From assembly GCA_018696595.1 (NCBI GenBank), contig JABHQW010000003.1, positions 96,001 to 160,000 of the forward strand: a stretch of 64,000 bases of DNA. The letters are read 5' to 3'. The position numbers were made by a program, and so were the translations under genes. Below the pieces are notes generated by a model. It was not told the origin of the DNA, did not search any database, and saw nothing but the letters and a program-made list of their open reading frames with translations. Positions 2,371 to 19,453 of this stretch are shown in pieces (the first letter of the stretch is position 1; every line of letters begins with the position of its first letter). This DNA is from Candidatus Woesearchaeota archaeon. Lineage in GTDB: Archaea; Nanobdellota; Nanobdellia; Woesearchaeales; GW2011-AR9.

Positions 2371-3789
2371 ATGTCATTAAATGTACTTGAAGATCTTAAA
2401 GAAGTTTACAAATTAATATATAAATTGCTAATTTTTCCTGAATCTGATTGGAAAACTAAGATTTATGCTTCTACAGCTATGGCTTATCTCATAAATCCTT
2501 ATGATGTTATTCCCGAAGCAGAAAAAGGAAGTGAAGGTTATATTGATGATTTATATCTTTGTTTGTTAGTTTTAAAAGATTTGTCATTGTATAGAAAGGA
2601 TCTTATTGAAATAGCCAATGATAATAGATTAGATATTCAAGAATTTGTTGAACAAAAATTGATTATTTGTAAAAACGAGTTATGCGAAAAAACTAAACTG
2701 ATTGAAAAAGTTTCTGGTTATGATTCTCTGGAAAGATTTGATATTAGAAATTCACAAGTAGATTCCAAAATATCATCACAACTTGAACAGAACTCAACAA
2801 TTCTAGGAACAATTGCATTCTTTTATGATGAACTTTTAAATGTTCAAAAAACCTATGAAGAAAGAAGAGGTATGAACAAAAGAGGACCCCCTATAAGAAA
2901 AGGTTTAGGAAGAAAGATGGATCTTCCTTATGCATACCACCACACATTCTTAGAATTAAAAGAATCTAATCTTTTTTTTGATCTTAATAGGGTCTGTTTA
3001 CAATTTAACAAAAGTGAAGAATTAAAGCTTAAGATTGATTCTAATAATTCAACAGAAGATTTATTTATGAATTACGAGGACAACTTAAAAAATTTTAATG
3101 AAGATGTAGAATATTATAAAATCATTAAATTTGCTCATCCATTATTTAAAACATTATGTAATATTTCTAATGACTCCGATTGTAGTTGGCAAATCAAACA
3201 TGAAATCAATTCAGCGTTGGCTTATTTTTCATTAGTTGATGATGTTATTGATGACACTATAGAGTCTGGTCTTGGTTATGTTGATGATATTTTTGTTGCA
3301 TCATTTGTTTTATTTGATATTGCTGAAAAAGATTTTCATCTTTTAAACAGAAATTTAGACTCTGGTTTAAGTATTACAACAATTAAAAACTTATTTGAAA
3401 GATCAAGTGAAATTATTGATAATGATTTGAGTCAAATAATTAATTTACTAGGTTTAAGGGGATTAATGTCATTTTTTGATTTAAATCAACCAAATAACAC
3501 TAATGTTTGTATTATTTCCAATCATGGTTCTAATTATAAAAAGATTTTGAATAGTTTAATTAAGCTATATTTTGTTCCAGAACTTAGTTTTGACAAGAAA
3601 TCAAACATATCAGAATACATTAAAGAAATTAATAAAAGTTTATCTGGAGATCAATTATTAAAATTAAATAAGTTTATTGAAATAGCAGAAAACAGTTGTT
3701 ATAATAAAAACATACAACAAGAATTTGAAAACAAAGAACATGAAGAGATCAGATTATTAATACTTAAACATAAAATATTATCAAGCTAA
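2371..3789 (+). CDS. protein with two DUF1232 (YkvA-like) domains
   Basis: Two copies of the AxAYxxxPxDxIPD...GYxDD motif: AMAYLINPYDVIPEAEKGSEGYIDD and ALAYFSLVDDVIDDTIESGLGYVDD; ends 1 nt before the helicase start. Confidence 0.75.
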   Translation: MSLNVLEDLKEVYKLIYKLLIFPESDWKTKIYASTAMAYLINPYDVIPEAEKGSEGYIDDLYLCLLVLKDLSLYRKDLIEIANDNRLDIQEFVEQKLIICKNELCEKTKLIEKVSGYDSLERFDIRNSQVDSKISSQLEQNSTILGTIAFFYDELLNVQKTYEERRGMNKRGPPIRKGLGRKMDLPYAYHHTFLELKESNLFFDLNRVCLQFNKSEELKLKIDSNNSTEDLFMNYEDNLKNFNEDVEYYKIIKFAHPLFKTLCNISNDSDCSWQIKHEINSALAYFSLVDDVIDDTIESGLGYVDDIFVASFVLFDIAEKDFHLLNRNLDSGLSITTIKNLFERSSEIIDNDLSQIINLLGLRGLMSFFDLNQPNNTNVCIISNHGSNYKKILNSLIKLYFVPELSFDKKSNISEYIKEINKSLSGDQLLKLNKFIEIAENSCYNKNIQQEFENKEHEEIRLLILKHKILSS

Positions 3790-3790
3790 A

Positions 3791-5917
3791 ATGGAAAACA
3801 AATCGTTTAAAGAAATAGATGAACAAATTAAAGACACTTACTATAATTCAGAAGACAATCCCATTAAAAATTTTATGATTCCTGTTCTAAAGTGTTCTAA
3901 AATATATCGCCGCGAAACATACAGTTTTAATGCAGCTATATTTTCTTTGATTAGTGATGCTTTAGTTGATGTGTTTGAAAATGATTGTAAAATCCAGTAT
4001 ATTGTTGGCATGGAAATTAACGAAAAACATGAATTAGCAATTGAAAAAGGACTAGAAGATGAAGTAGGTCTTATTGAAAAACATTTAATTAATGATTTTG
4101 GGGACATTGAAAAATTTGTTGAAAAATTAAATAGTAAATATGAAAAAGAAAAAATAGAGAATAGGTTAAGAATGCTTAGTCTGATGATCTCAAAAGGAAT
4201 TTTAGAGATTAAAGTAGGATTTAAATGTAAAAGGGGAAAACCATTAGACCCTCGTTGGGCAAAATTCCACCCCAAAGTTATGATTTTTACTGATTTTGAA
4301 GGAAACTCAATTGTTACAAATGGATCACCTAATGAGAGCGAAGGTGGTGGAGACCGTAATGAAGAAGCATTTGATGTATTCAAAAGTTGGGACATTGGAT
4401 CCAAAAAATGGTTTGATAGACATTGGGCAAAGTTTGATGAATTTTGGGATAATACTAAGGAAAACGTAAAGACTATTGAAGTAAGTAAATTAATTGAAAG
4501 TAATGTTCTTAGAAAATATAGAAGTAGATCCAAAACTAAAGGAGAAATGATCAATATTGAAAAAGATTTAAACAAGCTGTTGGAAATGGAAAAAAAGGTG
4601 GATCAAACTGAAGAAAATATCCCTAAAGAATCAGGAGAGATAGAATTACGACATTACCAAAATGAGATTATTGATAATTGGTTTAAAGAAGACTCTAAAG
4701 GAATTTATGCACTTTGTACAGGAGCAGGTAAAAGTATTACTGCTATTCGCACTATTAAAAGATTATTGAAAAATCATCCTAAAACCATTACAATTATTGT
4801 TGCACCATATATCCCCCTTTGTGAACAATGGATACAAGTTTTAAAAACTGAGAATATAACCCCATTAATGGCATATAAGTCAATGGAATTATGGTATAAA
4901 TCATTAAAACATAAATTACTTTCATTTCAAATGGGTGGAACTGATTCGATATTTATTATCACAACAAATAAAACATACTCTAGTGATGAATTTCAAAATT
5001 TATTGAATAATTATTGGAAAAATTGTTTTTTAATAATCGATGAGTGCCATCATTTTGCTAGTACAACATACAGATCAACATTAAATGAGAGAATACAATT
5101 TAGGCTAGGTCTTTCAGCAACCCCGGAAAATGAGATGGACAGAGAGGGAAACATGGTGTTATATCGTTTTTTTAAGAAAAATATACCTCCTGAATATTCT
5201 TTAAAAGATGCTATCATTGAAGGTTACTTAAACAGATATGATTATTATCCAATAATTAATGAACTTGATGATCAAGAAAATGAAAATTTTGAGGAAATAA
5301 CTTTAAGAATATTAGCTGCTAAAAAAGATGGTGACTTTAAAAAAGTTGAAACCATATCTAAAGAAAGAGATGTTCTAATAGATACTTCGAAAACAAAAAT
5401 CCCAAATCTTTCAAGACTATTAGATCAGATTGAAGATTTATCACATTCGTTAATTTATTGTTCTGGAACTAAACAATTAGAACAAGTTTCAAGACTATTA
5501 AAGGAAAAAGGAATAAATTTTGGAAAAATTACTTCTGATGAAACCGCAAAAGAAAGATATAATATGATCGATCAATTTAAAAAAGGATTTATTAAACTTC
5601 TTTTGAGCATAAGAATACTTGATGAAGGTATAGATATTCCAGCAATTAAAACTGCAATGATATTAAAAAGTTCAGCAAGATCTCGACAAGCAATTCAGAG
5701 AAGGGGAAGATGTTTAAGATTATTAAAAGATGAATTTGGAGAGATAATTGATAAAAATGCTAGAATTTACGACTTTGTCACTTTGCCAAGGTCAAAATTA
5801 GATGTGGTTAAAGAATCATATGGTCTTGAAATAAAACGAATAATGGAATTCGTAACTTTATCAAACAATTCAAAAGAAGCAGAAAAGATTATAAAAGATC
5901 ACTTCCCTTATGTTTAA
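3791..5917 (+). CDS. pbeA: PLD-nuclease-SF2 (DEAD/DEAH) helicase, PbeA-like / DNA phosphorothioation-associated restriction enzyme
   Basis: HKD-like FHPKVMIFTD...GSPNES; Walker A TGAGKS; DECHH; motif III LSAT; motif VI QRRGRCLR; adjacent to dnd genes. Confidence 0.75.
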   Translation: MENKSFKEIDEQIKDTYYNSEDNPIKNFMIPVLKCSKIYRRETYSFNAAIFSLISDALVDVFENDCKIQYIVGMEINEKHELAIEKGLEDEVGLIEKHLINDFGDIEKFVEKLNSKYEKEKIENRLRMLSLMISKGILEIKVGFKCKRGKPLDPRWAKFHPKVMIFTDFEGNSIVTNGSPNESEGGGDRNEEAFDVFKSWDIGSKKWFDRHWAKFDEFWDNTKENVKTIEVSKLIESNVLRKYRSRSKTKGEMINIEKDLNKLLEMEKKVDQTEENIPKESGEIELRHYQNEIIDNWFKEDSKGIYALCTGAGKSITAIRTIKRLLKNHPKTITIIVAPYIPLCEQWIQVLKTENITPLMAYKSMELWYKSLKHKLLSFQMGGTDSIFIITTNKTYSSDEFQNLLNNYWKNCFLIIDECHHFASTTYRSTLNERIQFRLGLSATPENEMDREGNMVLYRFFKKNIPPEYSLKDAIIEGYLNRYDYYPIINELDDQENENFEEITLRILAAKKDGDFKKVETISKERDVLIDTSKTKIPNLSRLLDQIEDLSHSLIYCSGTKQLEQVSRLLKEKGINFGKITSDETAKERYNMIDQFKKGFIKLLLSIRILDEGIDIPAIKTAMILKSSARSRQAIQRRGRCLRLLKDEFGEIIDKNARIYDFVTLPRSKLDVVKESYGLEIKRIMEFVTLSNNSKEAEKIIKDHFPYV

Positions 5918-5922
5918 ATAAA

Positions 5923-6093
5923 ATGAAAGAAATTAAAAACATATTAGAGAATATGAAATGTCCTGAGGAGAATCAGATTTTACTTATTGAAACACTTAAG
6001 AGTTGTAAATATCATAGATCTGATAAGAATAATAAAGAAATAATCTTACAAATATATTCTACACTTAATAAATTGATGAAAAATGAAAATTAA
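5923..6093 (+). CDS. unannotated 56-aa protein at the pbeB position (MKEIKNILENMKCPEENQILLIETLKSCKYHRSDKNNKEIILQIYSTLNKLMKNEN)
   Basis: Translated by hand: ATG at 5923, TAA at 6091-6093; fills the gap between helicase and ATPase and overlaps the ATPase start. Confidence 0.65.
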   Translation: MKEIKNILENMKCPEENQILLIETLKSCKYHRSDKNNKEIILQIYSTLNKLMKNEN

Positions 6094-8101
6094 AGAAATG
6101 AAATTGAAGAATTTCAAAGCATATCGTAATGAAGAACTAAAATTCAGTACAGATAAGGAAAAAAATGTCACATTAATTTATGGTGTTAATGGAGCGGGTA
6201 AAACTTCTTTTTTTCAGGCATTGAATTGGGGTTTATATGGGTATGATGTGATTGGTACAAACAACACAATCTCCTCAATGAAAACAATTGCAGGAAAATA
6301 TTTATTGGATGAATTATCTGAAGGAGAAACTGAAGAAGTAAAAATTGAAATTCAATTTGAAAACGATGGATATGATTATACATTAACAAGGATTGCACAT
6401 TTTATTAAAAAAAATAATGAGCTTTCTTACTTAATGAAAAATGATTTCCTGAGTTTGTACTATGTCTCTGATATGGGTAAACCAAGTATGATTAAAAATG
6501 ACTCATTGGATCAAGAACAAAAAATATCAAGAATCATAAACAACGTTCTTCCTTTCGGTTCTAGAGAGTACTTTTTATTTGATGGTGAAAATTTAGCTAA
6601 TTACTCAGAAGCCAATAAACACCAATGTCTCGAAATTAAAAATGCAATTAGACAAGTATTAGGGTTAGATGACTTTGATATTGCTATTAAAAATATAAAA
6701 GCGGTTAATGATCAATTAAGAAAAGATTTCGAGAAAAAAGAATGTTCTGAAAAGATAAATGACACCAATAATGTGATTGGAGATTACCAGGAAAGACAAA
6801 CAAAAATTAGCAAAGAAGTAATTTCTCAGAGATATTTATTAAAAGAAAAGAATACTGAATTTACAAAAAATGAAGATTTATTGAAATCTTTTCATCAAGA
6901 AATAGAAAAAATAGAAAAAAGAAGTGAAATTGAAAAAGAAATTGAATCAATTAAAATTACACTTTCCTTAAATTTAAAAGAATTAAGGTCTGTTTTGACT
7001 CAAGGTTATATGTGTTATTCAGAATCAATCCAAACAGAATGTTTTAATTTGCTAACATCATGGAGAAAACAAAATAAATTTCCAACTAAATATTATAATC
7101 TTGATTTTGTAAAAAATATTATCCAAAATAAAAAATGTTTTTTTTGGGATTTTGAAGAAAATAGTGAAGAACATAAATTCTTTTTAAAAGAAGAAGAAAA
7201 ATTACAAAATTGGGGACATAATATTCAAAATGATCTAACTGATTTTTATGGTAAAGTTTCTTCATTAAAAATAGGATCAAAAAGTTTAATTAAAGATATA
7301 AGTGAACAACATAAAGTATATGTACAAACTGAAACAAAATTTAGAGAACATATTCTTGCTCACGAGGAAATTAACAAAGAAATAAAATCCAAAATAACCG
7401 ATAAAGAAATTCAAGAATGTAATAATAAAAGAGAAATCATTCAAAATGAGATTCTTAAAGTTAGTACAAACATTAAATCACTTACTGAACAATCTATACT
7501 TTTTGAAGAAGAGATTAGAAAAGCAAATTCCCTCTTAAACTCTATGAAAAGTAAAACTGTAGAGGGAAAGAAAATTCAAGATAAAAAGAAATTAATAACT
7601 GAATCAATTTATTGGTTAAAACAATTATATGAACACTATTCTCAAATTAAACGACAAGAAGTTGAGAAACACATGCAAGACTTATTTAGAAATATTCTTT
7701 GGAAAAAACAACACTACCAGGATGCTAAACTAACCTCAGATTATAAATTAACATTACCTGACAAATGGGGAGATGCCGGAGAAGATCTGGTTTCAAAAGG
7801 AGAAGGCCAAGTATTAATATTAAGTTTTGTGGCAGCATTAGCAAAGTCTACAAATGATGAAGCACCATTTATTATTGATACTCCTTTTGCAAGAATTTCA
7901 ATAGAACCTACAATTAATATTGCAAAATTCTTACCAGAGCAAGTTTCACAATTAGTTCTTTTTGTTACTGATAAAGAATTAACTACCGAATCTGAAAGAT
8001 TATTTACTGAAAAAACCCAATATGTTTGGACAATAAAGTTTAATGAGGAAAATTCAGAAACAAATATTATAAATGGCAAACAAGTCAAAACAGAATATTA
8101 A
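6083..8101 (+). CDS. SMC/Rad50-like ABC ATPase, DndD paralogue (PbeC-like)
   Basis: Walker A GVNGAGKT, YFLFDGE, long coiled coil, signature VSKGE, Walker B/D-loop FIIDTPFARIS. Confidence 0.8.
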   Translation: MKIKEMKLKNFKAYRNEELKFSTDKEKNVTLIYGVNGAGKTSFFQALNWGLYGYDVIGTNNTISSMKTIAGKYLLDELSEGETEEVKIEIQFENDGYDYTLTRIAHFIKKNNELSYLMKNDFLSLYYVSDMGKPSMIKNDSLDQEQKISRIINNVLPFGSREYFLFDGENLANYSEANKHQCLEIKNAIRQVLGLDDFDIAIKNIKAVNDQLRKDFEKKECSEKINDTNNVIGDYQERQTKISKEVISQRYLLKEKNTEFTKNEDLLKSFHQEIEKIEKRSEIEKEIESIKITLSLNLKELRSVLTQGYMCYSESIQTECFNLLTSWRKQNKFPTKYYNLDFVKNIIQNKKCFFWDFEENSEEHKFFLKEEEKLQNWGHNIQNDLTDFYGKVSSLKIGSKSLIKDISEQHKVYVQTETKFREHILAHEEINKEIKSKITDKEIQECNNKREIIQNEILKVSTNIKSLTEQSILFEEEIRKANSLLNSMKSKTVEGKKIQDKKKLITESIYWLKQLYEHYSQIKRQEVEKHMQDLFRNILWKKQHYQDAKLTSDYKLTLPDKWGDAGEDLVSKGEGQVLILSFVAALAKSTNDEAPFIIDTPFARISIEPTINIAKFLPEQVSQLVLFVTDKELTTESERLFTEKTQYVWTIKFNEENSETNIINGKQVKTEY

Positions 8102-8108
8102 ATAGAAG

Positions 8109-8549
8109 ATGAATCAATCAAGAAACCCACCCATCCACATTAATGAAAAGTTTAATATGAGATATAGTCTTTACTCTAATCCACAACACAAAAGAAACAC
8201 TGATGAAAAGGAGTTATTATTTTTCTCTAGGATGGTTGATTTATTTATGTTAGCTACAATTCATGGCTTTAAAGAAGGATTAAGAATTCCCTTTGAAAAA
8301 CCAAGTGAAAAAACTGATATTTTCAAATGGAGCAATTTTAAAGACGAAGATTTGACAATTATTAAATCAATAGGATTATTAGAGCTTATTAGAATTGGAA
8401 ATGAGGATCCGAACATTATTAATGATAAATCAAGAATGGTTGAAATAATTCAAGAATATGCTAATGGGGGATTTCAAGATTTAATGGAAATATTAGAAGA
8501 GAACCCTGACTTTGAAGGAAATTTCATTTCATTAATACTAACAAAATAA
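8109..8549 (+). CDS. Dnd system-associated small protein (PbeD / dnd-associated protein 4-like; DndE-like)
   Basis: 146 aa; DLFMLATIHG and IIQEYANGGFQDL are typical of this family; position after the ATPase. Confidence 0.65.
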   Translation: MNQSRNPPIHINEKFNMRYSLYSNPQHKRNTDEKELLFFSRMVDLFMLATIHGFKEGLRIPFEKPSEKTDIFKWSNFKDEDLTIIKSIGLLELIRIGNEDPNIINDKSRMVEIIQEYANGGFQDLMEILEENPDFEGNFISLILTK

Positions 8550-8576
8550 TTTAGTAACTCAAATAAACCACTAATT

Positions 8577-8592
8577 GGATTACGTTTAATCC
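8577..8592. promoter_or_regulatory. palindrome GGATTA-CGTT-TAATCC, candidate operator upstream of dndB
   Basis: Perfect 6-bp inverted repeat with 4-nt spacer, about 45 bp upstream of the TATA-like box. Confidence 0.35.
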
Positions 8593-8638
8593 GTTCAAAA
8601 GGAAGTCTATTTTATTCACTTGGAAGTTAAACTGAAAG

Positions 8639-8646
8639 TTTATATA
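8639..8646 (+). promoter_or_regulatory. archaeal TATA box (TTTATATA) with purine-rich BRE-like GAAAG for dndB
   Basis: Lies about 24 nt upstream of the dndB ATG, consistent with a leaderless transcript. Confidence 0.55.
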
Positions 8647-8669
8647 TCATTTAATTCTTAGAACTTTTT

Positions 8670-9779
8670 ATGGTGATAAAAAAAGAGGTTAGTTCAAATG
8701 CTTTCTCATTTACTGCATTAAGAGGCATTCAGTCTGGAAGAGAATATTATGTTGCAATGTGTCCATTAAGATTAATTCCTAGAATATTCTTATTTAACGA
8801 AATGGAAATCCCCCCCCATATGAGGGCACAAAGAACTCTTAATAAAGCAAGAGTTCCTGAAATGGCTTCATATATGATTAAAAATAATGATTATATTTTT
8901 TCATCTATTACTGCATCTATAGATGGAGAGATTCTATTTGAACCGATTGAGGATACTGGTCATAAATCTAAAATGGGAACTCTGAGCGTTCCTATGAGTG
9001 CTAGATTTTTAATTAATGATGGGCAGCATAGAAGAGCAGCAATAGAAAAAGCTTTAGCAGAGAAGCCAGAATTAGGTTCTGAAACAATCTCTGTAGTGTT
9101 CTTCCTTGATGCTGGATTGAAACGTAGCCAACAAATGTTTGCAGATCTTAATAAAAATGCGGTAAAACCTACAACTTCATTAAATATTTTATATAATCAT
9201 AGAGATGAGTTTTCAAGATCCATTATTTCACAATTAAATAATATACCTATTTTTGGAAATCAGTTAACTGAATTAGAAAAAACATCTATTTCAAATAGAG
9301 CCAAAAAGGTTTTCACTCTAAATAGTATTTATCATTCAACAAAATCATTTTTAGGTAAAAAAGAAAAAACCCCAGTTATATCTAATGATGAAAAGAAATT
9401 GGTTTCTGAGTTTTGGAATGAAGTTCATAATAATATTTCTGAATGGCAAGATGTTGTTAATGATAAGATCACTCCTTATGGATTGAGACAAGATTATGTT
9501 CATGTTTCCGGTGTTGTTCTTCATGCTATAGGTAGAATGGGTCATAAACTAATAAAAGATTATCCCAATAATTGGAAAATAAAACTAAAAAATCTTCAAC
9601 AAATTGATTGGAAAAAATCAAATCCCATTTGGGAAGGAAGAGCCATGCAAAATGGAAGATTAAGTAAAGTAAATACCAATTTGATTTTAACAAGTAATTA
9701 TCTTAAACAGCAAATGGAAGTTCCATTAAGTAAAGCAGAGATTGAAATTGAAAAAATAATAACAGGCGGATCAAAATAG
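8670..9779 (+). CDS. dndB: DNA sulfur modification protein DndB (DGQHR domain regulator)
   Basis: AQRTLNKARVPEM, INDGQHRRAAI, SQQMFADLN motifs. Confidence 0.92.
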   Translation: MVIKKEVSSNAFSFTALRGIQSGREYYVAMCPLRLIPRIFLFNEMEIPPHMRAQRTLNKARVPEMASYMIKNNDYIFSSITASIDGEILFEPIEDTGHKSKMGTLSVPMSARFLINDGQHRRAAIEKALAEKPELGSETISVVFFLDAGLKRSQQMFADLNKNAVKPTTSLNILYNHRDEFSRSIISQLNNIPIFGNQLTELEKTSISNRAKKVFTLNSIYHSTKSFLGKKEKTPVISNDEKKLVSEFWNEVHNNISEWQDVVNDKITPYGLRQDYVHVSGVVLHAIGRMGHKLIKDYPNNWKIKLKNLQQIDWKKSNPIWEGRAMQNGRLSKVNTNLILTSNYLKQQMEVPLSKAEIEIEKIITGGSK

Positions 9780-11179
9780 TTAAAGAATCTATATTTAAAA
9801 GTAGAAAATTAAAAGACATTCACAAAGAGATACAAACGGTTTATTTAAGTGATGATAGACCTTGGGTTATTGGATTTAGTGGAGGAAAAGATTCTACAGT
9901 TATTTTACAACTAATTTGGTATGCATTATCCGAATTACCAAAAAATAAATTAAAAAAAACTATACATGTTATTTCTTCAAATACTTTAGTAGAATCACCT
10001 ATTTTAATTAATTATGTTGGAAAGATTCATAAGTTGATCAATAGCAAAGCAAAAGAGCAAGGGATTCCAATTACTGCCACACACATTTTTCCCAAAGTAG
10101 AAGACACTTTTTGGGTTAATTTAATTGGAAAAGGTTATCCTGCACCAACAAGAATGTTTAGATGGTGTACAGAAAGGTTAAAAATTAAACCCGCTGATGA
10201 GTTTATTTTTAATACAGTAAGTAAGTATGGTGAAGCAATCGTTGTTTTAGGAGTTCGTAAAGAGGAAAGTACTTCAAGAGAACAAAGTATGAATACTTAT
10301 AAAATTCAAGGTTCTTTGTTATCAAAGCATTCAAAATTCTCACAGGCGTATGTTTATACCCCCATTGAAGAATTTACTGTGGATGATGTTTGGTCATATT
10401 TATTACAAAAAAAGTCTCCTTGGGGAGCTAATAATAGGGAACTATTAACAATGTATTCTGATAAGAATAGTGGAGAATGTCCATTAGTAGTAGATAATAC
10501 TTCTCCTAGTTGTGGTGGGTCTAGATTTGGTTGTTGGACTTGTACATTGGTTAAAAAAGATAAATCAATGGATAATCTAATCTCTAGTGGTGAAAAATGG
10601 ATGCAACCTTTGTCTGATTTTAGAGTTAAACTATATGAAACAACAGATCCTGAAAAAAAGTATAAATTTAGAGATTTTAAGAGTAGAAGAGGTTTTGTAA
10701 GGTTAAAAAATGATGGAAGCGGAAAAATTGCTAGAGGCCCATACAAATTCTCTTATTGTAAGGAATTGTTATTAGAATTATTAAAAATTCAAATGAAATT
10801 TAATGAACAAGGGATTGATTTTCAGGTAATTAATGAAAATGAGATTCATGAAATTAGGAAAATTTGGCGTAATGAAAGAAATGATTGGGAAGACTCAATT
10901 CCAAAAATGTATGAATCAGTATTAGGGAAAAGCCTTAATTGGGTTCAAGATGATTTCGGGGAATTTTCGGTTTCTGAAAGAGAATTATTGAAAAGAATCT
11001 GTGAAAAAAATAATGTCTCAACAGATCTAATATTAGAATTATTAGATGTAGAAAAACAATTCCAAGGAATGACCCGTAGAGCAAATATTTATGCCAAACT
11101 AGGATCGACATTAAAAAAAGAATGGAGGTCTGAAGAAGAATTTTTAGATTCTTTAAAAAAGAAAAATGAAAATAAATGA
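9776..11179 (+). CDS. dndC: DndC (PAPS reductase-like phosphorothioation protein); N-terminus extends 86 codons upstream of the called ORF, probable ATA start
   Basis: In-frame upstream sequence encodes DDRPWVIGFSGGKDS and SNTLVESP; downstream GKGYPAP..FRWCTERLKI and SCGGSRFGCWTC; no ATG/GTG/TTG between the in-frame TGA (9749) and TTG 10034. Confidence 0.88.
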   Translation: MVKESIFKSRKLKDIHKEIQTVYLSDDRPWVIGFSGGKDSTVILQLIWYALSELPKNKLKKTIHVISSNTLVESPILINYVGKIHKLINSKAKEQGIPITATHIFPKVEDTFWVNLIGKGYPAPTRMFRWCTERLKIKPADEFIFNTVSKYGEAIVVLGVRKEESTSREQSMNTYKIQGSLLSKHSKFSQAYVYTPIEEFTVDDVWSYLLQKKSPWGANNRELLTMYSDKNSGECPLVVDNTSPSCGGSRFGCWTCTLVKKDKSMDNLISSGEKWMQPLSDFRVKLYETTDPEKKYKFRDFKSRRGFVRLKNDGSGKIARGPYKFSYCKELLLELLKIQMKFNEQGIDFQVINENEIHEIRKIWRNERNDWEDSIPKMYESVLGKSLNWVQDDFGEFSVSERELLKRICEKNNVSTDLILELLDVEKQFQGMTRRANIYAKLGSTLKKEWRSEEEFLDSLKKKNENK

Positions 11180-13130
11180 AGTTAAATTAAATAATTATGG
11201 CCTGTATCATGGCACTCAAACTTTTGATCTTAGAACTACTGGTTCTAAAAATATAATCCTAATTGGTGGAGAGAATGGGCATGGTAAAACAACTTTATTT
11301 GATGCCATAAAACTCGCACTATATGGAAAGAAGTCCGCAGATTTTAGTTTAACTAATCAAGAATATCAAGAATTATTATTCAGTAAAATTCATGACTCTG
11401 CTAGTGTTGAATCGGCAGATCATGCTGGAATAGAAGTGGAATTTGAACATTCAGTTCTAGGAGAAATTAATAAATATCGAATTAAGCGATTTTGGAATGT
11501 ACGTAACAATAAAATTATTGAAGATTTTGAAGTTTCCCAGAATGGAAAAACTCTGGATGATTTCTCTTTTGAACAATGGGAAGATTTTATTAATGACTTA
11601 ATTCCTCAAGGATTGGCAAAATTATTCTTTTTTGATGGAGAAAAAATACAAAATTTAGCAGAAGATAAAAATAATCAATATTTATCTGATGCATTTAAAA
11701 GTTTATTAGGTATAGATTTAATTGAAAAATTAAAAGCTGACCTTAGAATATATTTAATTCGGAATACAAACGGGAAAGAATCTTCTGACATTGAAAAAGA
11801 AGTAACTAAATTAAATAAAAATAAAATCATTTTATCAAAACAAATTGATGGTATAGACTCAAATATTGAGAAAAATGATTTATTTTTGAAAAAAAACATC
11901 AAACAAATAAAATATCTTGAGAATGCACTCTCTGTAAAAGGGGGGAATTTTGCTCGTGATCGTGATTCTTTGAAACAAAAATCAAACGAATTGGATGTTA
12001 AAATTAATTTTTGTGAAGAAAAAATACGTTCAATGTGTAATGAACAATTACCTTTTATTTTTTCTCCAAAATTAAATTTATCTCTTTTAACTAGATTAAA
12101 AGTTGAAAGAGAGTCAAAACACAACCAAATTGCTTTTGATAAGGTGATCTCTGCCATAAAAGAAATAAAAAATGAATTAGTTAGCAGTAAGAAAAATGAT
12201 AAATCAGTTTTGAATATTTTGGATAACAAAATTAAAAGCTTCAATATTGAAGGAGACCAAAATGAAGTTCACAAAATATCAGATAGTCACTTTTTTAGAC
12301 TTACAAATTTAATTGGAACAGATATTGATGAAACCAAAAAAGGATTTATTAATTTAGTTAAGGACCACGAACAATTAACTTATAAAAAAACAAAATTAGT
12401 AAAACAATTAGGAATTGTCCCTGATGAATTGGATCTAAAGCCTTACTTTGAAAAATTAGGTAAGTGTAATAAAAAATTAGGAGAATTTAATTCATTTAAA
12501 AAACAGTTGTTAGAAAAGAAAAAAACTTTTGATTTCAAAATAAATCAGTTAGAAAGAGACATTGATAAAAAAATTGATATGATCAGGACAATTAATAAGA
12601 AAGATGAAATTATCCAATCAATAAGCAAGGTAGAATCTGTTTTAACTGAATATCATGGTAAATTGCATGATTTTAAAATGAAAGAATTTTCTAAATATTT
12701 TCTTATGTGTTTTGATAGTATATCTAAGAAGAAGAACATTTTTTCAAAAGTAGAATTAGATCCTAAAACATTTAATGTTTATTTATGGAAATATAGTAAT
12801 AATAAGAGGATCTCAAAGAATCAACTTTCTACAGGAGAAAAACAATTATATGCTATTGCTGTTTTATGGACATTAATAAAAATATCTCAAAGACCTCTTC
12901 CTTTTATTATTGATACTCCCTTAGCCAGACTTGATGTTAAAAATAGGAATAATATTGTCAATAATTTTTTTCCCAATGCAAGTCATCAAATCATTATCCT
13001 CTCAACAGATACTGAAATTGATCAGAATTATCATGGTATTCTGAAAAATAAAATTTCAAGAGAGATGGTTTTAGATTTTAATGATGAGAAAACAAGAATA
13101 ATTCCTGGTTATTTTTGGGGTGAAAAATGA
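11166..13130 (+). CDS. dndD: DNA sulfur modification protein DndD (SMC-like ATPase)
   Basis: GENGHGKTT, LFFFDGEKI, LSTGEKQ, FIIDTPLARLD, LSTDTEID. Confidence 0.92.
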   Translation: MKINEVKLNNYGLYHGTQTFDLRTTGSKNIILIGGENGHGKTTLFDAIKLALYGKKSADFSLTNQEYQELLFSKIHDSASVESADHAGIEVEFEHSVLGEINKYRIKRFWNVRNNKIIEDFEVSQNGKTLDDFSFEQWEDFINDLIPQGLAKLFFFDGEKIQNLAEDKNNQYLSDAFKSLLGIDLIEKLKADLRIYLIRNTNGKESSDIEKEVTKLNKNKIILSKQIDGIDSNIEKNDLFLKKNIKQIKYLENALSVKGGNFARDRDSLKQKSNELDVKINFCEEKIRSMCNEQLPFIFSPKLNLSLLTRLKVERESKHNQIAFDKVISAIKEIKNELVSSKKNDKSVLNILDNKIKSFNIEGDQNEVHKISDSHFFRLTNLIGTDIDETKKGFINLVKDHEQLTYKKTKLVKQLGIVPDELDLKPYFEKLGKCNKKLGEFNSFKKQLLEKKKTFDFKINQLERDIDKKIDMIRTINKKDEIIQSISKVESVLTEYHGKLHDFKMKEFSKYFLMCFDSISKKKNIFSKVELDPKTFNVYLWKYSNNKRISKNQLSTGEKQLYAIAVLWTLIKISQRPLPFIIDTPLARLDVKNRNNIVNNFFPNASHQIIILSTDTEIDQNYHGILKNKISREMVLDFNDEKTRIIPGYFWGEK

Positions 13131-13492
13131 ATGACTTTACTAGAATGAGAATATCTAATGATGCTACTTTCAAATTACGCTCTTTAAAACAAAGAACAGG
13201 ATTAACTCCAAATTTATTGTGTAGGGTTGGTTTATGTTTCTCATTGGAAAATGACCTACAAAATGATCTGGTTCCCTTAGATGAAGATGGGCAAGAGTTT
13301 AATCGTCAAACTTTATTGGGTGAAAATGACTTATTTTTTATTTCACTCATTAAGGAAAAATGTGCTTTAATGGGATTAGATTCTGAAAAAGATTTTATGC
13401 AACAATTTAAGTATCATTTGAATAATGGGATTTTAGTCTTACATGGAAGGGTTAAAAGTTTAACTGATTTAACAAACCTTATTGAAAAATGA
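13127..13492 (+). CDS. dndE: DNA sulfur modification protein DndE
   Basis: LKQRTGLTPNLLCRVGLCFSL...GQEFNRQTLLGE; 4-nt overlap with dndD. Confidence 0.9.
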   Translation: MNDFTRMRISNDATFKLRSLKQRTGLTPNLLCRVGLCFSLENDLQNDLVPLDEDGQEFNRQTLLGENDLFFISLIKEKCALMGLDSEKDFMQQFKYHLNNGILVLHGRVKSLTDLTNLIEK

Positions 13493-14607
13493 AAATAATC
13501 TATTGTGATAATAACTCCACTACTCAAGTAGATAAGAAAGTACTAAATGAAATGTTGCCTTACTTTTGTGAGAAATTTGGTAATGCTTCTAGTATTGACC
13601 ATGTTTATGGAAATGAATTATTACCTGAGATCAAGAAAGCAAGAGAGTCTATTGCTAAAGTAATTAATTGTGATTTTGATGAAATTATATTCACTAGTGG
13701 TGCTACTGAATCTAATAATTTGGCAATTATGGGCACAGTTGAGCAGTTAAAAGAAAAAGGAAATCATATTGTTACTTCTTCAATTGAACATAAATCAATT
13801 TTGAATGTTTGTCAAGAATTAGAAAAAAGAGGTTTTCAAGTTACTTATGTTTCTCCTGACAAGAGCGGAGTGTTGAAATCTGAAGATATTAAGTCTGCAA
13901 TTACTGATCAAACTATATTGATTTCGATTATGGGTGCCAATAATGAAATTGGCACTATTCAACCTATCAAAGAAATTGGCATTATTGCTAAAGAAAAAGG
14001 AATTGTATTTCATACTGATTCTGCACAAGCTTTTGGAAAAATTTCTTTAGATGTAAATAATATTGATTTAATGTCAATATCATCGCATAAAGTGTATGGT
14101 CCTAAAGGAATTGGTGCTTTATTTATTAGAAGAGGAGTAAAAATAAAACCTATCATTTTTGGTGGTGGCCAAGAAGGAAAGATACGACCAGGCACCTATA
14201 ATGTTCCAAGCATAGTTGGTTTTGGAAAAGCAAGTGAATTAGTTTCATTAAAGAATCAAGAATTAATTAAAAATTTAACTATGAATTTATATGATCGTTT
14301 GTCTGAACATGTCCAACTAAATGGAGATCTAAATAATCGTATTCCTGGAAATCTAAATTTGTTTGTTGAGGATGTTGATTCAAAAGCTTTAATTAATGAA
14401 GTAAAGACAAGTCTTGCAATTTCTGCAGGTTCCGCTTGTAATAGTGATGAAGTAACTCCTTCTCATGTTATTCTAGCTTTAGGATATGATGATAATAGAG
14501 CATATAGTAGTATTAGAATTGGATTAGGAAGATTTACAACGGAAGAAGAAATAAATAAAGTGGTAAATGTTTTAATTCCAGCAATTAAGAAACTGAGAAA
14601 TTTATAA
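13489..14607 (+). CDS. dndA: cysteine desulfurase DndA/IscS
   Basis: FTSGATESNN, HTDSAQ, PLP-lysine SSHKVYGPKG, catalytic SAGSAC; 4-nt overlap with dndE. Confidence 0.9.
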   Translation: MKIIYCDNNSTTQVDKKVLNEMLPYFCEKFGNASSIDHVYGNELLPEIKKARESIAKVINCDFDEIIFTSGATESNNLAIMGTVEQLKEKGNHIVTSSIEHKSILNVCQELEKRGFQVTYVSPDKSGVLKSEDIKSAITDQTILISIMGANNEIGTIQPIKEIGIIAKEKGIVFHTDSAQAFGKISLDVNNIDLMSISSHKVYGPKGIGALFIRRGVKIKPIIFGGGQEGKIRPGTYNVPSIVGFGKASELVSLKNQELIKNLTMNLYDRLSEHVQLNGDLNNRIPGNLNLFVEDVDSKALINEVKTSLAISAGSACNSDEVTPSHVILALGYDDNRAYSSIRIGLGRFTTEEEINKVVNVLIPAIKKLRNL

Positions 14608-14623
14608 ATATAAATTATAAAAT

Positions 14624-14998
14624 TTAATAATCATTCCCCAAAATCTTGTGTTTAAGCAATAATAATCTGATCTCATGATTCTCCTGATTCTCAAGTTTTC
14701 TTTTAATATTCTCACTTAAGTTTTTCCCGCTTTTATCAATTACTTCTTTAATAATACTAAACACTTTCCGTGATCTATCAATTAAGGGGAATATTGATTC
14801 TACTTCTTCATGTGTCATCCTTCCTAGACGGCATATGGAATACTCTCCATTACCTTGTTTAAATTCTTTAATTATTTGTAACTTTGGATTCCCTTTGTTA
14901 TAAGAATATATTACTATTCTAAATTTAGTTTTTCCTATGTTCACAGATTCTGAGAATAATTCAAGATCTAAATTAACATCATATCCAAATTTAGTCAT
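14624..14998 (-). CDS. PC4-like (putative ssDNA-binding) domain with C-terminal extension; probable start 14998 (MTKFGYDV)
   Basis: LDLELFSESV...YSYNKGNPKLQI...RLGRMTHEEV resembles small archaeal PC4-like proteins; ATGA overlap with the DUF2779 gene stop. Confidence 0.55.
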   Translation of the reverse strand: MTKFGYDVNLDLELFSESVNIGKTKFRIVIYSYNKGNPKLQIIKEFKQGNGEYSICRLGRMTHEEVESIFPLIDRSRKVFSIIKEVIDKSGKNLSENIKRKLENQENHEIRLLLLKHKILGNDY

Positions 14999-16413
14999 TT
15001 CACCAACTCCCTCAACGCTTCTACAATCCAGATCATACCTTCGGTATCTAACTCGCAATACTTAAGCAGATCATCACGGACATCTTCACCGCCGTTGAGC
15101 ATCTTTACAAATAACAAAGAAGCAGTATCGCCATCAGAGATTTCTAAATGAGAATAATCTTTACCAACAATCGCAGGTAAGACTTTCTTTAAAGAAGCTG
15201 AACCTTTCTGTTTAAGATTGTAATAATGAAATTGTCTGAAAGGAACAATTAAATCAACCACTCTACTAACTACGCCCTCAACCCAATCTTTATATTCAGG
15301 AAATACTAAACCTAACTCTCGTAACCGACCAATCTCAAAAGATTGATTATATGTTACAATAGTTCCAGAAGAACCTAAAACTTCTTTCAAAGCTTTAAGA
15401 AATTCTAAGCGACAATCTAATTTAGAACCTAAAAACTCATAATGCTTATCATTAACATGTAAAGACCATTGAAACGGAATTTGTTGGTATGGTTTAGTTC
15501 CATCTAAAATAGGAACAGCTGACCGAAAAGTTTCGAAATCTAAATAGTATAGTTCACCTTTCAAAGTATTAAGAAACTTTTCAATCTCTTCTTTATTTAC
15601 ATGAACTTTTCCATTAATCTCACATTGATGTTGAATACCTTGTTTATCAGATAATTTAAACTCAGAAGGAATGTCTTTCAATTCTAAAATTCCATCTTCA
15701 TATAACTGAAAACTTTTCTTCCCACCACGAGATAAATCAAAAACACTTGAAGAAGGTAAAAATCCCCAACATCCATCTTCTAAAGGACAATCGTAAGGGT
15801 CAGCACAATCTGACGAAATCTTTACAGTAGGACAAACATTAGATCTCATTACTTTAAGCATTTCATCAATCTTTTCTTTAATTCCTGTAACTTCACTAAC
15901 TAAAGAAGTAATATCTTCTTTAACAAAGAACTTTACAGGGTCTATCTCTCCATCTTTAACAAACTTATTATTAACATGCATTAAAAAACAATTCTTAATT
16001 TTCAAACCACATAAAGAATAAACATATTTCTGAAATGCAACATCTTGAATATTAATTTTTTTAACAGAAGCGCCAGATTTAACTTCAATAATGTCCCAAC
16101 CATCTTCATTAGGAACAAGAACGTCTGCCCGAGAATAAACTTCTCCATCTGAATAGGCTGCTTCGAATAAAGGTTTGCCTTCAGACAATAGTTTTCTTGA
16201 ATTAATCAAACTTCCTTTAAAATCAGCTTCAGGGATATCAATGCCTTCTGGAAACATTTTCTTTGCTAACTGACCAACGATATGACCTTGATCAAACTTA
16301 TGTTTAGTAGCTAAATCATGTTCAGGAATTTTATCTTTCTCATGCAAATCTATCCAGAAGTACTTTAAACATTGTAGTCCGACTAAGTATCTTGATTTTG
16401 TTAATAATGCCAT
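14995..16413 (-). CDS. DUF2779-domain protein (N-terminal RecB/PD-(D/E)XK-like nuclease, C-terminal RNase H-like domain)
   Basis: LTKSRYLVGLQC, RADVL...IIEVKS..., DVAFQKYV, YYLDFET, YNQSFE, YCELDT. Confidence 0.8.
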   Translation of the reverse strand: MALLTKSRYLVGLQCLKYFWIDLHEKDKIPEHDLATKHKFDQGHIVGQLAKKMFPEGIDIPEADFKGSLINSRKLLSEGKPLFEAAYSDGEVYSRADVLVPNEDGWDIIEVKSGASVKKINIQDVAFQKYVYSLCGLKIKNCFLMHVNNKFVKDGEIDPVKFFVKEDITSLVSEVTGIKEKIDEMLKVMRSNVCPTVKISSDCADPYDCPLEDGCWGFLPSSSVFDLSRGGKKSFQLYEDGILELKDIPSEFKLSDKQGIQHQCEINGKVHVNKEEIEKFLNTLKGELYYLDFETFRSAVPILDGTKPYQQIPFQWSLHVNDKHYEFLGSKLDCRLEFLKALKEVLGSSGTIVTYNQSFEIGRLRELGLVFPEYKDWVEGVVSRVVDLIVPFRQFHYYNLKQKGSASLKKVLPAIVGKDYSHLEISDGDTASLLFVKMLNGGEDVRDDLLKYCELDTEGMIWIVEALRELVK

Positions 16414-16476
16414 TTTATACTAAAATATAAGCTACATTAAAAATTTAACTAAAACATCGCCCCAAAACACCACTAA

Positions 16477-18189
16477 CTATTCTAAGCCAAATTTTCTTAA
16501 CCTACTTCTTATAGCACCCGGTTGTCGTTTTAGAATTCTAGCAATTTCATCAACTGAAACAGATAGTTCAAATAACCTTCTTAATCTATCATCATCATCT
16601 ACGCCCCAAGAAGCATAAGCATTTGGAGATGTTTCTTGTATTTGTTCTATTCTTTTATGATAATCAGTTTTAATATTTACTTTCTCACTCTCAGTTGTAT
16701 GATCATTAATTACATCTAAAAATGCTTCTCCATAATCACTTAACTTGTTATGACCAACACCTTTAATTTGTAAAAATTCTGCATTATTCTTTGGCAAGTA
16801 TGAAACCATCTCTCTTAAAGAAACATCTCCAAACACAATGTAAGGAGGACAATTTTTTCTTCTGGCAATTTTCAATCTTAAAGCTCTTAACTTCTGAAAT
16901 AAACCAGTATCTACCCCAGAGACTACTATTTTCTTAGAAACTGTTCTTCCCTTAGAGACCACTTCAGAAACCCCAGAAACAACTTTTATCCCAAGACCGC
17001 CTTTACAGATATCACACCCGTTACAATTATTCCCAGAATATGACTCCCCTAAATATTCTAAAATGCTCTTTCTCCGACATAATGAACTTTCACAAAAACT
17101 CATCATTCTGTTCAACTTGTTTAATGCAGTACTTTTCATTAAAGGATTATAAATATTTTTAAGAAAAAATTTATGTTTTATAATATCGCCTCTTGAATAA
17201 AATAAAACACAATCACTGGAAAGTCCATCACGTCCTGCTCTACCAATCTCTTGATAATATCCTTCTAGTGATTTTGAAAACGTATGATGGATTACTAATC
17301 GCACGTCAGGCTTGTCTATCCCCATCCCAAAAGCAATTGTAGCTACAATTATATTTACTTCATCTTTGATAAATAGATCTTGATTCTTCTGTCTTAATTC
17401 ACTAGAAAGACCTGCATGGTATGGTAAGGCGTTAAATCCACCCTCCCTTAACTGTTTAGCAACTTTCATTGTATCTTTACGAGAAAAACAATAAATGATT
17501 GTAGGTTCACCCTGATGTTTTTTTACCAAACCCAATATTTTGTTAAAAGTCTTCTTTTTCTCAGTAACAATTATGTTTAAATTTTCTCTATCAAAACTTG
17601 AAATAAATGTTTGTGGATTTACTAATGCTAATTGTTTTAGAATATCTTCTCTAACTTTTAATGTGGCAGTTGCTGTTAAAGCAATGATGGGCGTTTCAGG
17701 AAATAAAGTTTTGAATAATTTTAAATTTCCATAATCTTTACGAAAGTCATGTCCCCATTCAGAAATACAATGTGCTTCATCAATTGCTATTAAACTGATG
17801 TTAAGTGTTAATAAAAATCTTTTAAATTTTTCTAATGCTAATCTTTCAGGAGCAACATAAAGAATTTTAACATCATTCTGTTTAATTCTTTCTTTAATCT
17901 CTTCAATTTCACTATAAGAAAGAGTAGAATTAATAAATTCTGCTTTAATTCCATTTGCTTTTAAGTTATCAACTTGATCTTTCATTAAAGAAATCAAAGG
18001 TGAAACTACAATGGTAAGTCCTTCAAGTTGAATAGCAGGTATTTGATAACAAATTGACTTCCCTCCACCAGTTGGCATTAGAACCAGTGAATCTTTCTTT
18101 TGTAGAACACGATTAATAATATCTAATTGTAATGGTCTAAATTTATCATAACCAAAATGTTTTTTTAATAATAATTCCATACTTGACAA
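16477..18189 (-). CDS. recQ: RecQ DNA helicase with Zn-binding and HRDC domains plus a C-terminal small helical domain
   Basis: MPTGGGKSICYQIP, IDEAHCISEWGHDFR, ALTATA, YYQEIGRAGRDG, CRR...CNGCDIC, HRDC PPYIVFGD. Confidence 0.93.
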   Translation of the reverse strand: MSSMELLLKKHFGYDKFRPLQLDIINRVLQKKDSLVLMPTGGGKSICYQIPAIQLEGLTIVVSPLISLMKDQVDNLKANGIKAEFINSTLSYSEIEEIKERIKQNDVKILYVAPERLALEKFKRFLLTLNISLIAIDEAHCISEWGHDFRKDYGNLKLFKTLFPETPIIALTATATLKVREDILKQLALVNPQTFISSFDRENLNIIVTEKKKTFNKILGLVKKHQGEPTIIYCFSRKDTMKVAKQLREGGFNALPYHAGLSSELRQKNQDLFIKDEVNIIVATIAFGMGIDKPDVRLVIHHTFSKSLEGYYQEIGRAGRDGLSSDCVLFYSRGDIIKHKFFLKNIYNPLMKSTALNKLNRMMSFCESSLCRRKSILEYLGESYSGNNCNGCDICKGGLGIKVVSGVSEVVSKGRTVSKKIVVSGVDTGLFQKLRALRLKIARRKNCPPYIVFGDVSLREMVSYLPKNNAEFLQIKGVGHNKLSDYGEAFLDVINDHTTESEKVNIKTDYHKRIEQIQETSPNAYASWGVDDDDRLRRLFELSVSVDEIARILKRQPGAIRSRLRKFGLE

Positions 18190-19345: not shown

Positions 19346-19453
19346 TAAAAACAAACTTAAAGAATTTTGAAGGCAAAAAAAGAGGGATTCATATTAGTAT
19401 TAAAGATAACAATAAACAATAACAAATATAAACAACAAACATTTAATTTCCTC

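What the first reader, a model, noticed from the sequence alone, without database searches (positions are those of the whole stretch)
3709..14710. Two unrelated proteins flanking the pbe/dnd cluster end in the same 24-aa C-terminal module: a possible docking tag
Seen: the DUF1232 protein ends NIQQEFENKEHEEIRLLILKHKIL-SS (3709-3780, +). The PC4-like protein on the other side ends NIKRKLENQENHEIRLLLLKHKIL-GNDY (14639-14710, -). That is 16/24 identity, with no other similarity between the proteins. In the LKHKIL codons every DNA difference is synonymous (cat/cac, aaa/aag, ata/att, tta/ttg), so the conservation looks protein-level rather than a recent DNA duplication. To my recollection, small archaeal PC4-like proteins end before this segment, so it looks appended. 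Inference: a portable amphipathic helix that recruits different accessory proteins (a DUF1232 protein; an ssDNA binder coupled to a nuclease) to a common partner, such as the Pbe or Dnd SMC complex, or lets them hetero-oligomerise. I know of no description of such a tag in phosphorothioation systems.
Basis: partly seen in the sequence, partly recalled or inferred. Interest (0 to 1): 0.85.

Follow-up and report, generated by a model that had tools for sequence, protein, structure and literature searches.

The report
Shared C-terminal helix in Pbe accessory proteins
Two otherwise unrelated proteins on either side of an archaeal phosphorothioate defence island end in the same, truly homologous 28-residue helix; this helix is the normal end of a tandem-DUF1232 protein that always precedes one subtype of pbeA, and a rare small DNA-binder-like protein has copied it, so it is probably a shared contact helix, though its partner is unknown.

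Summary
The 472-aa DUF1232 protein (2371-3789, +) and the 124-aa small protein (14624-14998, -) share only their last 28 residues: 16/28 identical, BLASTP E 2e-7, hhalign E 2e-7. Tail profiles built only from other organisms find the other window protein at E 4e-8 and 7e-9 among 15,222 genome ORFs. Synonymous sites between the two copies are saturated, and orthologue comparisons give dN/dS of 0.06 and 0.16, so the helix is kept at protein level.

- The tail is not a widely portable tag.
- A tail profile searched against 1.84 billion representative proteins and about 730 archaeal genomes found only two architectures.
- One is the tandem-DUF1232 family, where the tail is the family-wide C-terminus.
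- The other is the small, possibly PC4-like protein, seen in three lineages.
- The DUF1232 protein lies directly upstream of pbeA in 11 of 13 lineages, but only with one PbeA subclade.
- In one relative the two tail-bearing genes are adjacent, both upstream of pbeA.

My best reading is a one-time capture of the DUF1232-protein helix by the small protein, giving both the same protein contact. No binding is shown. This is a new variant of a known kind, of moderate interest. Other first-stage reads of the scan noted the same tail on this same stretch.

The parts
2371..3789 (+). Tandem-DUF1232 protein (472 aa), first gene of the pbe operon; its stop lies 1 nt before the pbeA ATG
   Evidence: Pfam DUF1232 36.4 bits against a cut-off of 23. 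A family of 17 homologues all carry the tail. AF2 model pLDDT 80.5, all-helical, no PDB match. Junction sequence.
3703..3786 (+).
   Evidence: Modelled as a single helix, residues 448-471.
3791..5917 (+). pbeA (HKD/PLD nuclease fused to an SF2 helicase)
   Evidence: PADLOC PbeA E 1.4e-167; Pfam ResIII, Helicase_C and PLDc_2.
5923..6093 (+). pbeB-position small protein (56 aa)
   Evidence: Assigned by position. phmmer matches the small ORFs at the same position in L011 and L018. No library hit.
6083..8101 (+). pbeC (CxC-type ABC ATPase)
   Evidence: PADLOC PbeC E 7.4e-76.
8109..8549 (+). pbeD (DndE-like cognate)
   Evidence: TIGR04062 dnd_assoc_4, E 1.1e-9 but below its cut-off. PADLOC PbeD E 0.006. 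Homologues in L009 and in the P0013 contig carry PF27807.
8670..14607 (+). dndB (8670-9779), dndC (frame open from 9752, first canonical start at 10034, ends 11179), dndD (11166-13130), dndE (13127-13492), dndA (13489-14607)
   Evidence: Pfam and PADLOC hits. dndE is assigned through its L001 orthologue, which carries PF08870.
14624..14998 (-). Small protein (124 aa) with a four-strand-plus-helix core (possibly PC4-like) and a helical extension of about 50 aa ending in the shared tail; convergent with dndA
   Evidence: ATGA overlap with the upstream gene.
14633..14716 (-).
14995..16413 (-). Cas4-like PD-(D/E)xK nuclease fused to DUF2779, translationally coupled to the small tail-bearing protein
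   Evidence: Pfam DUF2779 E 1.6e-38. PADLOC Cas4 E 6e-4. Overlap shown.
16477..18189 (-). RecQ-type helicase, first gene of the same minus-strand gene row
   Evidence: Pfam DEAD, Helicase_C, RecQ_Zn_bind and HRDC.

Best explanation
The shared segment is one homologous C-terminal helix of about 28 residues: a polar, acidic first half followed by a Leu-rich end (consensus E-x-[KR]-L-L-[LI]-L-K-[HY]-[KE]-I-L).

It is the native end of a tandem-DUF1232 protein. That protein is the conserved first gene of one subclade of archaeal pbeABCD operons, with its stop 1 nt before pbeA or overlapping it.

A small four-strand-plus-helix protein, possibly a PC4-like ssDNA binder, occurs in three related islands. 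It acquired the same helix once, from a DUF1232 gene of the window's clade. Purifying selection has kept both copies since.

Inferred mechanism: the helix makes the same protein-protein contact in both carriers. This places the small protein, and through gene coupling its nuclease and helicase neighbours, in the same assembly as the DUF1232 protein. It could do so by occupying the same site on a Pbe component or by pairing with the DUF1232 protein's own helix.

Shown: homology, C-terminal position, selection, and restriction to pbe/dnd islands. Inferred: the one-time capture, and any binding.
For: - Homology is limited to the tail: BLASTP E 2e-7 and hhalign E 2e-7. Non-circular profile tests give E 4e-8 and 7e-9 genome-wide.
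- The tail is conserved throughout the DUF1232 family, 17 sequences at 33-88% identity. Between the window and L006 it is better conserved than the rest of the protein (57% against 40% amino-acid identity).
- Purifying selection acts on the tail in both lineages. dN/dS is 0.06 for the small protein (window against L001) and 0.16 for the DUF1232 protein (window against L016), and dS between the two window copies is saturated.
- Gene context of the DUF1232 protein: it sits directly upstream of pbeA, on the same strand, in the window, L006/L007, L009, L010, L011, L014, L016, L017, L018 and the contigs of P0011 and P0013.
- Gene context of the small protein: it is seen only beside pbe/dnd genes. 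In the window and L001 it is convergent with dndA. In L006 it lies between the DUF1232 gene and pbeA.
- PbeA homologues of 31-36% identity in two archaeal classes (12 loci) have no such upstream gene, so the accessory goes with one PbeA subclade.
- The small-protein tails are nearest to each other and then to DUF1232 tails of the window's clade.
- In the last 12 residues, 7 are hydrophobic and spread over more than half of a helical wheel, as expected for a buried contact helix (my reading of the sequence).
Against: - No partner has been identified.
- The tail persists, in diverged form (K-L-L-E-L-R-Q-K-L-L), in DUF1232 proteins that sit among housekeeping genes. No PbeA was found in those genomes at E 1e-10, though their completeness is not given. 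The helix therefore has a role that does not need PbeA.
- In the AF2 model the helix has pLDDT of about 80-87 within a model of pTM 0.80. That fits a helix that is part of the protein's own fold as well as it fits a docking helix.
- Only two architectures carry the tail, so 'tag' overstates its portability.
Confidence: 0.5

Rival explanations
1. The helix is an internal structural or self-association element of each protein, for example the closing helix of a bundle or a homo-oligomerisation helix. It was carried along when the 3' end of a DUF1232 gene was fused to the small gene. The two proteins need not share a partner or meet.
For: - The tail is family-wide in the DUF1232 family, including standalone members from genomes with no PbeA found.
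- The helix has high local confidence in both monomer models: pLDDT about 80-87 and 80-86.
- Hydrophobic residues lie on more than one face of the helix (sequences).
Against: - It does not explain why an unrelated small protein kept a foreign helix under purifying selection (dN/dS 0.06).
- It does not explain why that protein is found only in the same islands as the DUF1232 protein, once directly between it and pbeA.
- Pbe-linked tails keep two hydrophobic positions that are charged in the standalone members. This hints at an extra exposed surface, but it is a weak trend with exceptions.
Confidence: 0.3
2. The helix is a membrane-targeting amphipathic helix. It would bring both proteins to the cell membrane, in keeping with the usual membrane annotation of DUF1232/YkvA proteins.
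For: - The helix is a Leu-rich C-terminal helix flanked by Lys, Arg and His.
- Source databases name the DUF1232 homologues 'uncharacterized membrane protein YkvA'.
Against: - The hydrophobic residues are not confined to one face.
- The preceding half of the helix is strongly acidic.
- The AF2 model of the DUF1232 protein is a soluble-looking all-helical protein, and I saw no long hydrophobic segment in the sequence.
- The 'membrane' name is an automatic label.
Confidence: 0.07
3. The two tail-coding segments act at DNA level, as inverted repeats that bound or invert the 11-kb pbe-dnd island, and the shared peptide is a by-product.
For: - In the window the two segments are in inverted orientation, exactly flanking pbeA...dndA.
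- They share a 15-nt identical run.
Against: - Nucleotide identity is only 65% with saturated synonymous sites, while the peptide is conserved.
- In L006 the two segments are direct repeats about 370 nt apart with no island between them.
- No recombinase was seen among the flanking genes I annotated.
- Most family members have a single copy.
Confidence: 0.03

Closest known systems
PbeABCD / CxC-type ABC-ATPase systems coupled to DndBCDEA (Xiong et al. 2019, PMC6459918; Aravind lab reappraisal 2024, PMC10853773)
   Same: The window holds a full pbeA-pbeB-pbeC-pbeD and dndB-C-D-E-A set in the described order and with the described domain make-up.
   Different: Neither paper mentions a DUF1232/YkvA gene, a PC4-like gene or a shared tail (term searches; section read). 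Here a tandem-DUF1232 gene is a fixed fifth gene of one PbeA subclade.
DUF1232 / YkvA family (PF06803)
   Same: The first repeat passes the Pfam threshold (36.4 bits against 23). A second copy of the acidic motif lies near residues 275-312.
   Different: This is a tandem, 430-680-aa, apparently soluble helical protein with a conserved C-terminal helix. No solved structure resembles the model. No function for DUF1232 was found in the literature search.
PC4 / YdbC / Pur-alpha-type ssDNA-binding fold (PF02229 and relatives)
   Same: The predicted core has four antiparallel strands followed by a helix. The nearest language-model clusters include PC4-annotated ones (score 0.88, 184 shared features). 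PC4 homologues and Pur-alpha appear among the weak fold matches (Z 3.8-4.6).
   Different: There is no Pfam PC4 hit even at E 10. The core of the model has pLDDT below 50. The protein has a helical extension of about 50 aa that the listed PC4-type chains (68-88 residues) have no room for.
Short C-terminal recruitment motifs shared by unrelated proteins, such as the bacterial SSB C-terminal tip and archaeal/eukaryotic PIP boxes for PCNA (from general knowledge)
   Same: A short conserved C-terminal element is present on otherwise unrelated DNA-metabolism proteins. The proposed role is to bring them to one hub.
   Different: Those motifs are 6-10 disordered residues found on many partners. This one is a 24-28-residue helix found on only two families, no hub is known, and it has no PIP consensus or acidic-tip consensus (sequences).

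Membership tests
DUF1232 (PF06803) | Match to the Pfam profile above the gathering score | tested here: met
   P0001 residues 30-65, 36.4 bits against a cut-off of 23, E 4.4e-9. Homologues carry the precomputed PF06803.
PC4 / YdbC ssDNA-binding family (PF02229) | Sequence match to the PC4 profile | tested here: not met
   No PC4 hit for P0004, P0007 or P0008 even at E up to 10. No PDB sequence relative.
PC4 / YdbC ssDNA-binding family (PF02229) | Four-stranded antiparallel sheet followed by a helix; fold match to solved PC4 homologues | tested here: inconclusive
   The model has the right order of elements, but the core has pLDDT below 50. PC4 homologues 5a4n and 4bg7 match only at Z 3.8-3.9, among many unrelated rows. 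The Atlas lead scores 0.88.
PbeABCD system | PbeA (HKD nuclease plus SF2 helicase) and PbeC (ABC ATPase with coiled coil) encoded together with a small PbeB and a DndE-like PbeD | tested here: met
   PADLOC gives PbeA at 1.4e-167 and PbeC at 7.4e-76. PbeD is weak (PADLOC 0.006; TIGR04062 at 38.6 bits, below its cut-off of 74). PbeB is assigned by size and position only.
Dnd modification module | DndB, DndC, DndD, DndE and DndA/IscS homologues in one cluster | tested here: met
   PADLOC: DndB 3e-155, DndC 6.8e-155, DndD 1.3e-176, DndA 2.1e-148. DndE is assigned through its orthologue with PF08870. Caveat: dndC has no canonical start before its PP-loop.
   Only two families were found: among 1.84 billion representative proteins at E 1e-3 or better, in 36 fetched loci, and in about 730 archaeal genomes scored with per-genome E-values.
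   11 of 13 distinct DUF1232-protein lineages are directly upstream of pbeA. All three lineages of the small protein abut pbe or dnd genes.
   No experimental assay is available here.

The most novel reading that the evidence does not exclude
The helix is a true recruitment element of a five-or-more-component Pbe variant. It would dock the tandem-DUF1232 protein to a Pbe hub (PbeA or the PbeC-PbeD pair). By copying it, the small ssDNA-binder-like protein, together with its coupled Cas4/DUF2779 nuclease and RecQ helicase, would be docked to the same hub. That would physically link a DNA-end-processing module to phosphorothioate-dependent defence.
Probability: 0.3. Interest if true: 0.6.

Novelty: new variant of a known kind. 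Interest (0 to 1): 0.42.

Why it matters
How PbeABCD stops viruses is unresolved. One paper reports no DNA cleavage (PMC6459918); another argues that the nuclease must act (PMC10853773).

One archaeal PbeA subclade has a fixed fifth gene. A second accessory protein has copied that gene's C-terminal helix. Together these give two concrete handles for working out how the complex is put together: delete or swap 28 residues and ask what falls off.

The finding also assigns the first consistent genomic context to a tandem form of DUF1232, a domain with no known function.

The scope is narrow. The feature is rare, seen in a few archaeal lineages, and no binding has been shown.

Tried and rejected
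1. Complex prediction of the full tandem-DUF1232 protein (alignment A3) with the small protein (alignment A2). The verdict was 'no answer': three runs scored 0.52, 0.00 and 0.00, and the controls were not run. This is evidence neither for nor against binding.
2. Search for a third architecture carrying the tail. The tail profile against 1.84 billion representatives gave 9 hits, all from the two known families. P0026 is a fragment of a DUF1232 protein that was miscalled with TGA read as Trp. Whole-genome scans of 401, 133 and 197 genomes gave nothing new; the four hits at E 0.003-0.008 among 401 genomes are about the number expected by chance.
3. Viral relatives of either protein, as possible mimics. 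None were found in IMG/VR with the patterns used.
4. Naming the small protein from libraries. Pfam, NCBIfam, PADLOC and PDB sequence searches gave nothing meaningful.
5. Naming the fold of the DUF1232 protein. Foldseek against the PDB gave no match at E 0.001 or better.
6. Extension of the similarity upstream of the tail, into the preceding helix. hhalign does not support it.
7. Concerted evolution between co-resident tails. This is rejected: in L006 the two tails are the least similar pair, at 10/31 identical.
8. Organism identity. No mcrA was found. The amoA search was uninformative because its controls were silent. A same-order genome has archaeal housekeeping genes. I leave the organism as a small-genome archaeon (1.19 Mb, 32% GC).
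Full report
WHAT IS THERE

The window carries the following genes on the plus strand:
- a 472-aa protein (2371-3789);
- pbeA (3791-5917);
- a 56-aa pbeB-position gene (5923-6093);
- pbeC (6083-8101);
- pbeD (8109-8549);
- dndB, dndC, dndD, dndE and dndA (8670-14607).

All were identified with Pfam, PADLOC and NCBIfam.

Convergent with dndA, on the minus strand, lies a gene row:
- a RecQ helicase (16477-18189);
- a Cas4-like/DUF2779 nuclease (14995-16413);
- a 124-aa small protein (14624-14998).

The start of the small gene overlaps the nuclease stop as ATGA. The stop of the 472-aa protein lies 1 nt before the pbeA ATG.

- BLASTP aligns only the last 28 residues: 16 identical, 25 similar, E 2e-7.
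- A profile-profile comparison of the two families aligns the same 28 columns and nothing else: probability 93.7%, E 2e-7.
- As a test that does not use the pair itself, I built a profile from the tails of 15 DUF1232-family members of other organisms. I searched all 15,222 ORFs of 30 aa or more in the 1.19-Mb genome. The window's small protein scores E 4e-8 and the next ORF 0.16. A profile of the small-protein tails from two other organisms finds the window's DUF1232 protein at E 7e-9.
- These are the only two copies in the genome.
- At DNA level the 84 nt are 65% identical. Essentially every synonymous site has changed (pS about 1) while pN is 0.22. The four differences in the LKHKIL codons are synonymous, as stated.

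The similarity is therefore old and is kept at protein level.

WHERE THE TAIL BELONGS

The 472-aa protein has one DUF1232 match above threshold and a second copy of the motif near residue 280. Seventeen homologues at 33-88% identity align end to end, and all end in the same helix. The consensus is K-F-I-E-I ... Y-N-K-N ... E-E-x-K-L-L-L-L-K-H-K-I-L. The tail is thus the native C-terminus of this family, not an add-on.

The AF2 model (pLDDT 80.5, pTM 0.80) is all-helical apart from one short β-hairpin. Residues 448-471 form a single helix. No solved structure resembles the model.

The small protein has only four relatives in 5.8 billion clustered sequences, and all carry the tail. Its model is poor (pLDDT 61). 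It shows four strands and a helix up to about residue 75, then three helices; the last two are the tail.

'PC4-like' remains a lead:
- there is no Pfam hit;
- the Atlas neighbours are partly annotated as PC4, with a score of 0.88;
- PC4 homologues and Pur-alpha appear only at Z 3.8-4.6.

HOW FAR THE TAIL TRAVELS

I searched a 33-position profile of 19 tails against 1.84 billion representative proteins. It gave nine hits at E 1e-3 or better. All are DUF1232-family members, the small-protein cluster, or a miscalled fragment of a DUF1232 protein.

Whole-genome searches use per-genome E-values and so reach weaker tails:
- In 401 genomes of the window's phylum, only the window's genome (two hits) and one same-order genome (a standalone DUF1232 protein) were found. 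None of the 41 sampled genomes of the window's own family has the tail, which suggests the island was acquired horizontally.
- In 133 genomes of the class of the Methanofastidiosum-labelled MAG and 197 of the class of the Thermoplasmatales-labelled MAG, only the two carriers already known were found.
- In 36 fetched loci no third architecture appeared.

'Portable tag on diverse domains' is therefore not supported: there are two carriers.

GENOMIC ASSOCIATION

The tandem-DUF1232 gene lies directly upstream of pbeA, on the same strand and abutting or overlapping it, in:
- the window;
- L006/L007, L009, L010, L016, L017 and L018;
- L011 (a MAG labelled Candidatus Methanofastidiosum);
- L014 (a MAG labelled Thermoplasmatales);
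- the contigs of P0011 and P0013.

Two lineages carry it among housekeeping genes: L008 = L013 = L021, and L012 = L019 = L020. Their tails have diverged, and no PbeA was found in their genomes at E 1e-10. Those genomes' completeness is not given.

Conversely, 12 PbeA loci of 31-36% identity in two archaeal classes have no such upstream gene. Only PbeA proteins of 43-51% identity do. The DUF1232 protein is therefore a fixed accessory of one PbeA subclade.

The small protein occurs in three lineages, always touching pbe/dnd genes. In the window and L001 it is convergent with dndA. In L006 it sits between the DUF1232 gene and pbeA, with 1-nt gaps on both sides.

A Cas4-like PD-(D/E)xK nuclease recurs in these islands: L001, L009, L014 and the P0013 contig.

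SELECTION AND ORIGIN

Between orthologues, the tail of the small protein has dN/dS of 0.06 (window against L001; 7 non-synonymous and 11 synonymous changes in 31 codons). The tail of the DUF1232 protein has dN/dS of 0.16 (window against L016; small counts). Between the window and L006, the DUF1232 tail is more conserved (57%) than the rest of the protein (40%).

The small-protein tails are closest to each other and next to DUF1232 tails of the window's clade. They are not closest to the co-resident DUF1232 tail; in L006 that pair is the least similar.

This fits one capture of the 3' end of a DUF1232 gene by the small gene, followed by independent evolution under constraint. The L006 gene order suggests where this could have happened. 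That step is inference.

WHAT IT DOES

Nothing here measures binding. In the last 12 residues, 7 are hydrophobic and lie on more than one face of a helix, which suits a buried contact rather than a surface-lying membrane helix.

Pbe-linked tails keep two hydrophobic positions that are Arg/Lys and Glu in the standalone members. This may mark an extra surface used only in the Pbe setting, but the trend has exceptions.

I rank the readings as follows:
- A shared contact helix that places both proteins in one assembly: 0.5.
- An internal or self-association helix with no common partner: 0.3.
- Membrane targeting: 0.07.
- A DNA-level repeat: 0.03. L006 has the two segments as close direct repeats, nucleotide identity is low, and I saw no recombinase.

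The remainder is unassigned.

COMPARISON WITH THE LITERATURE

The founding Pbe paper (PMC6459918) and the comparative reappraisal that renames the system the CxC ABC-ATPase system (PMC10853773) list PbeA-D, methylases and an MTaX1 domain. Neither mentions DUF1232/YkvA, PC4 or a shared tail. A full-text search for DUF1232 together with phosphorothioate terms gave no paper, and DUF1232 alone gave five unrelated ones. The library does not cover subscription journals.

VERDICT

The feature is real and robust. What is new is modest: a fifth conserved gene for one archaeal Pbe subclade, and a one-off transfer of its terminal helix to a second accessory protein. It is testable by simple deletions.

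Noticed in passing
window 9752-10036: The dndC frame is open from 9752 and encodes the SGGKDS PP-loop there, but the first ATG/GTG/TTG is at 10034, after the loop. An ATA at 9776 overlaps the dndB stop codon. The relative carrying P0011 also has a short dndC call after a gap of about 375 nt, so the odd start may be shared.
   Followed up: partly
window about 10976-11101 (DndC residues 315-356): The C-terminal part of DndC matches the profiles of the small Dnd/Pbe protein (Pfam Sp-DndD E 5e-11; PADLOC PbeB E 3e-4). A small-protein-like module therefore seems fused to DndC here, and also in the P0011 and P0013 contigs.
   Followed up: no
window 14624-18189 (-): A RecQ helicase, a Cas4-like/DUF2779 nuclease and the small tail-bearing protein form one gene row. 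The last two overlap as ATGA. This looks like a DNA-end-processing module attached to the island.
   Followed up: partly
window 848-1855 (-): An HNH endonuclease gene lies just outside the island on the DUF1232 side. A GIY-YIG gene (19367-19741) lies beyond the other side.
   Followed up: no
L011 4437-6533; proteins P0014-P0016: The DUF1232 proteins of one subgroup (P0014-P0016; P0016 is the Methanofastidiosum-labelled one in L011) are 678 aa long. They have an N-terminal extension of about 200 aa holding repeated G-[YF]-[DN]-x-[DN]-G motifs that are absent from the window's protein.
   Followed up: no
L008 8001-9305 (= L013, L021); L012 9498-10826: Standalone tandem-DUF1232 genes lie among housekeeping genes. 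In L008 the gene sits between SecDF and Lon (the L012 context was not annotated). These genomes gave no PbeA match, and the tail is diverged but still present.
   Followed up: partly
L001 313-2037; L009 1-813; L014 1209-1991: A Cas4-like PD-(D/E)xK nuclease of about 395 aa recurs beside these pbe/dnd islands. In L001 it is followed by a 172-aa protein of unknown family and then the small tail-bearing protein.
   Followed up: no
L010 503-712: The database protein P0026 (69 aa) is a miscalled piece of a DUF1232 protein read with TGA as Trp. It is not a separate small tail-bearing protein.
   Followed up: yes
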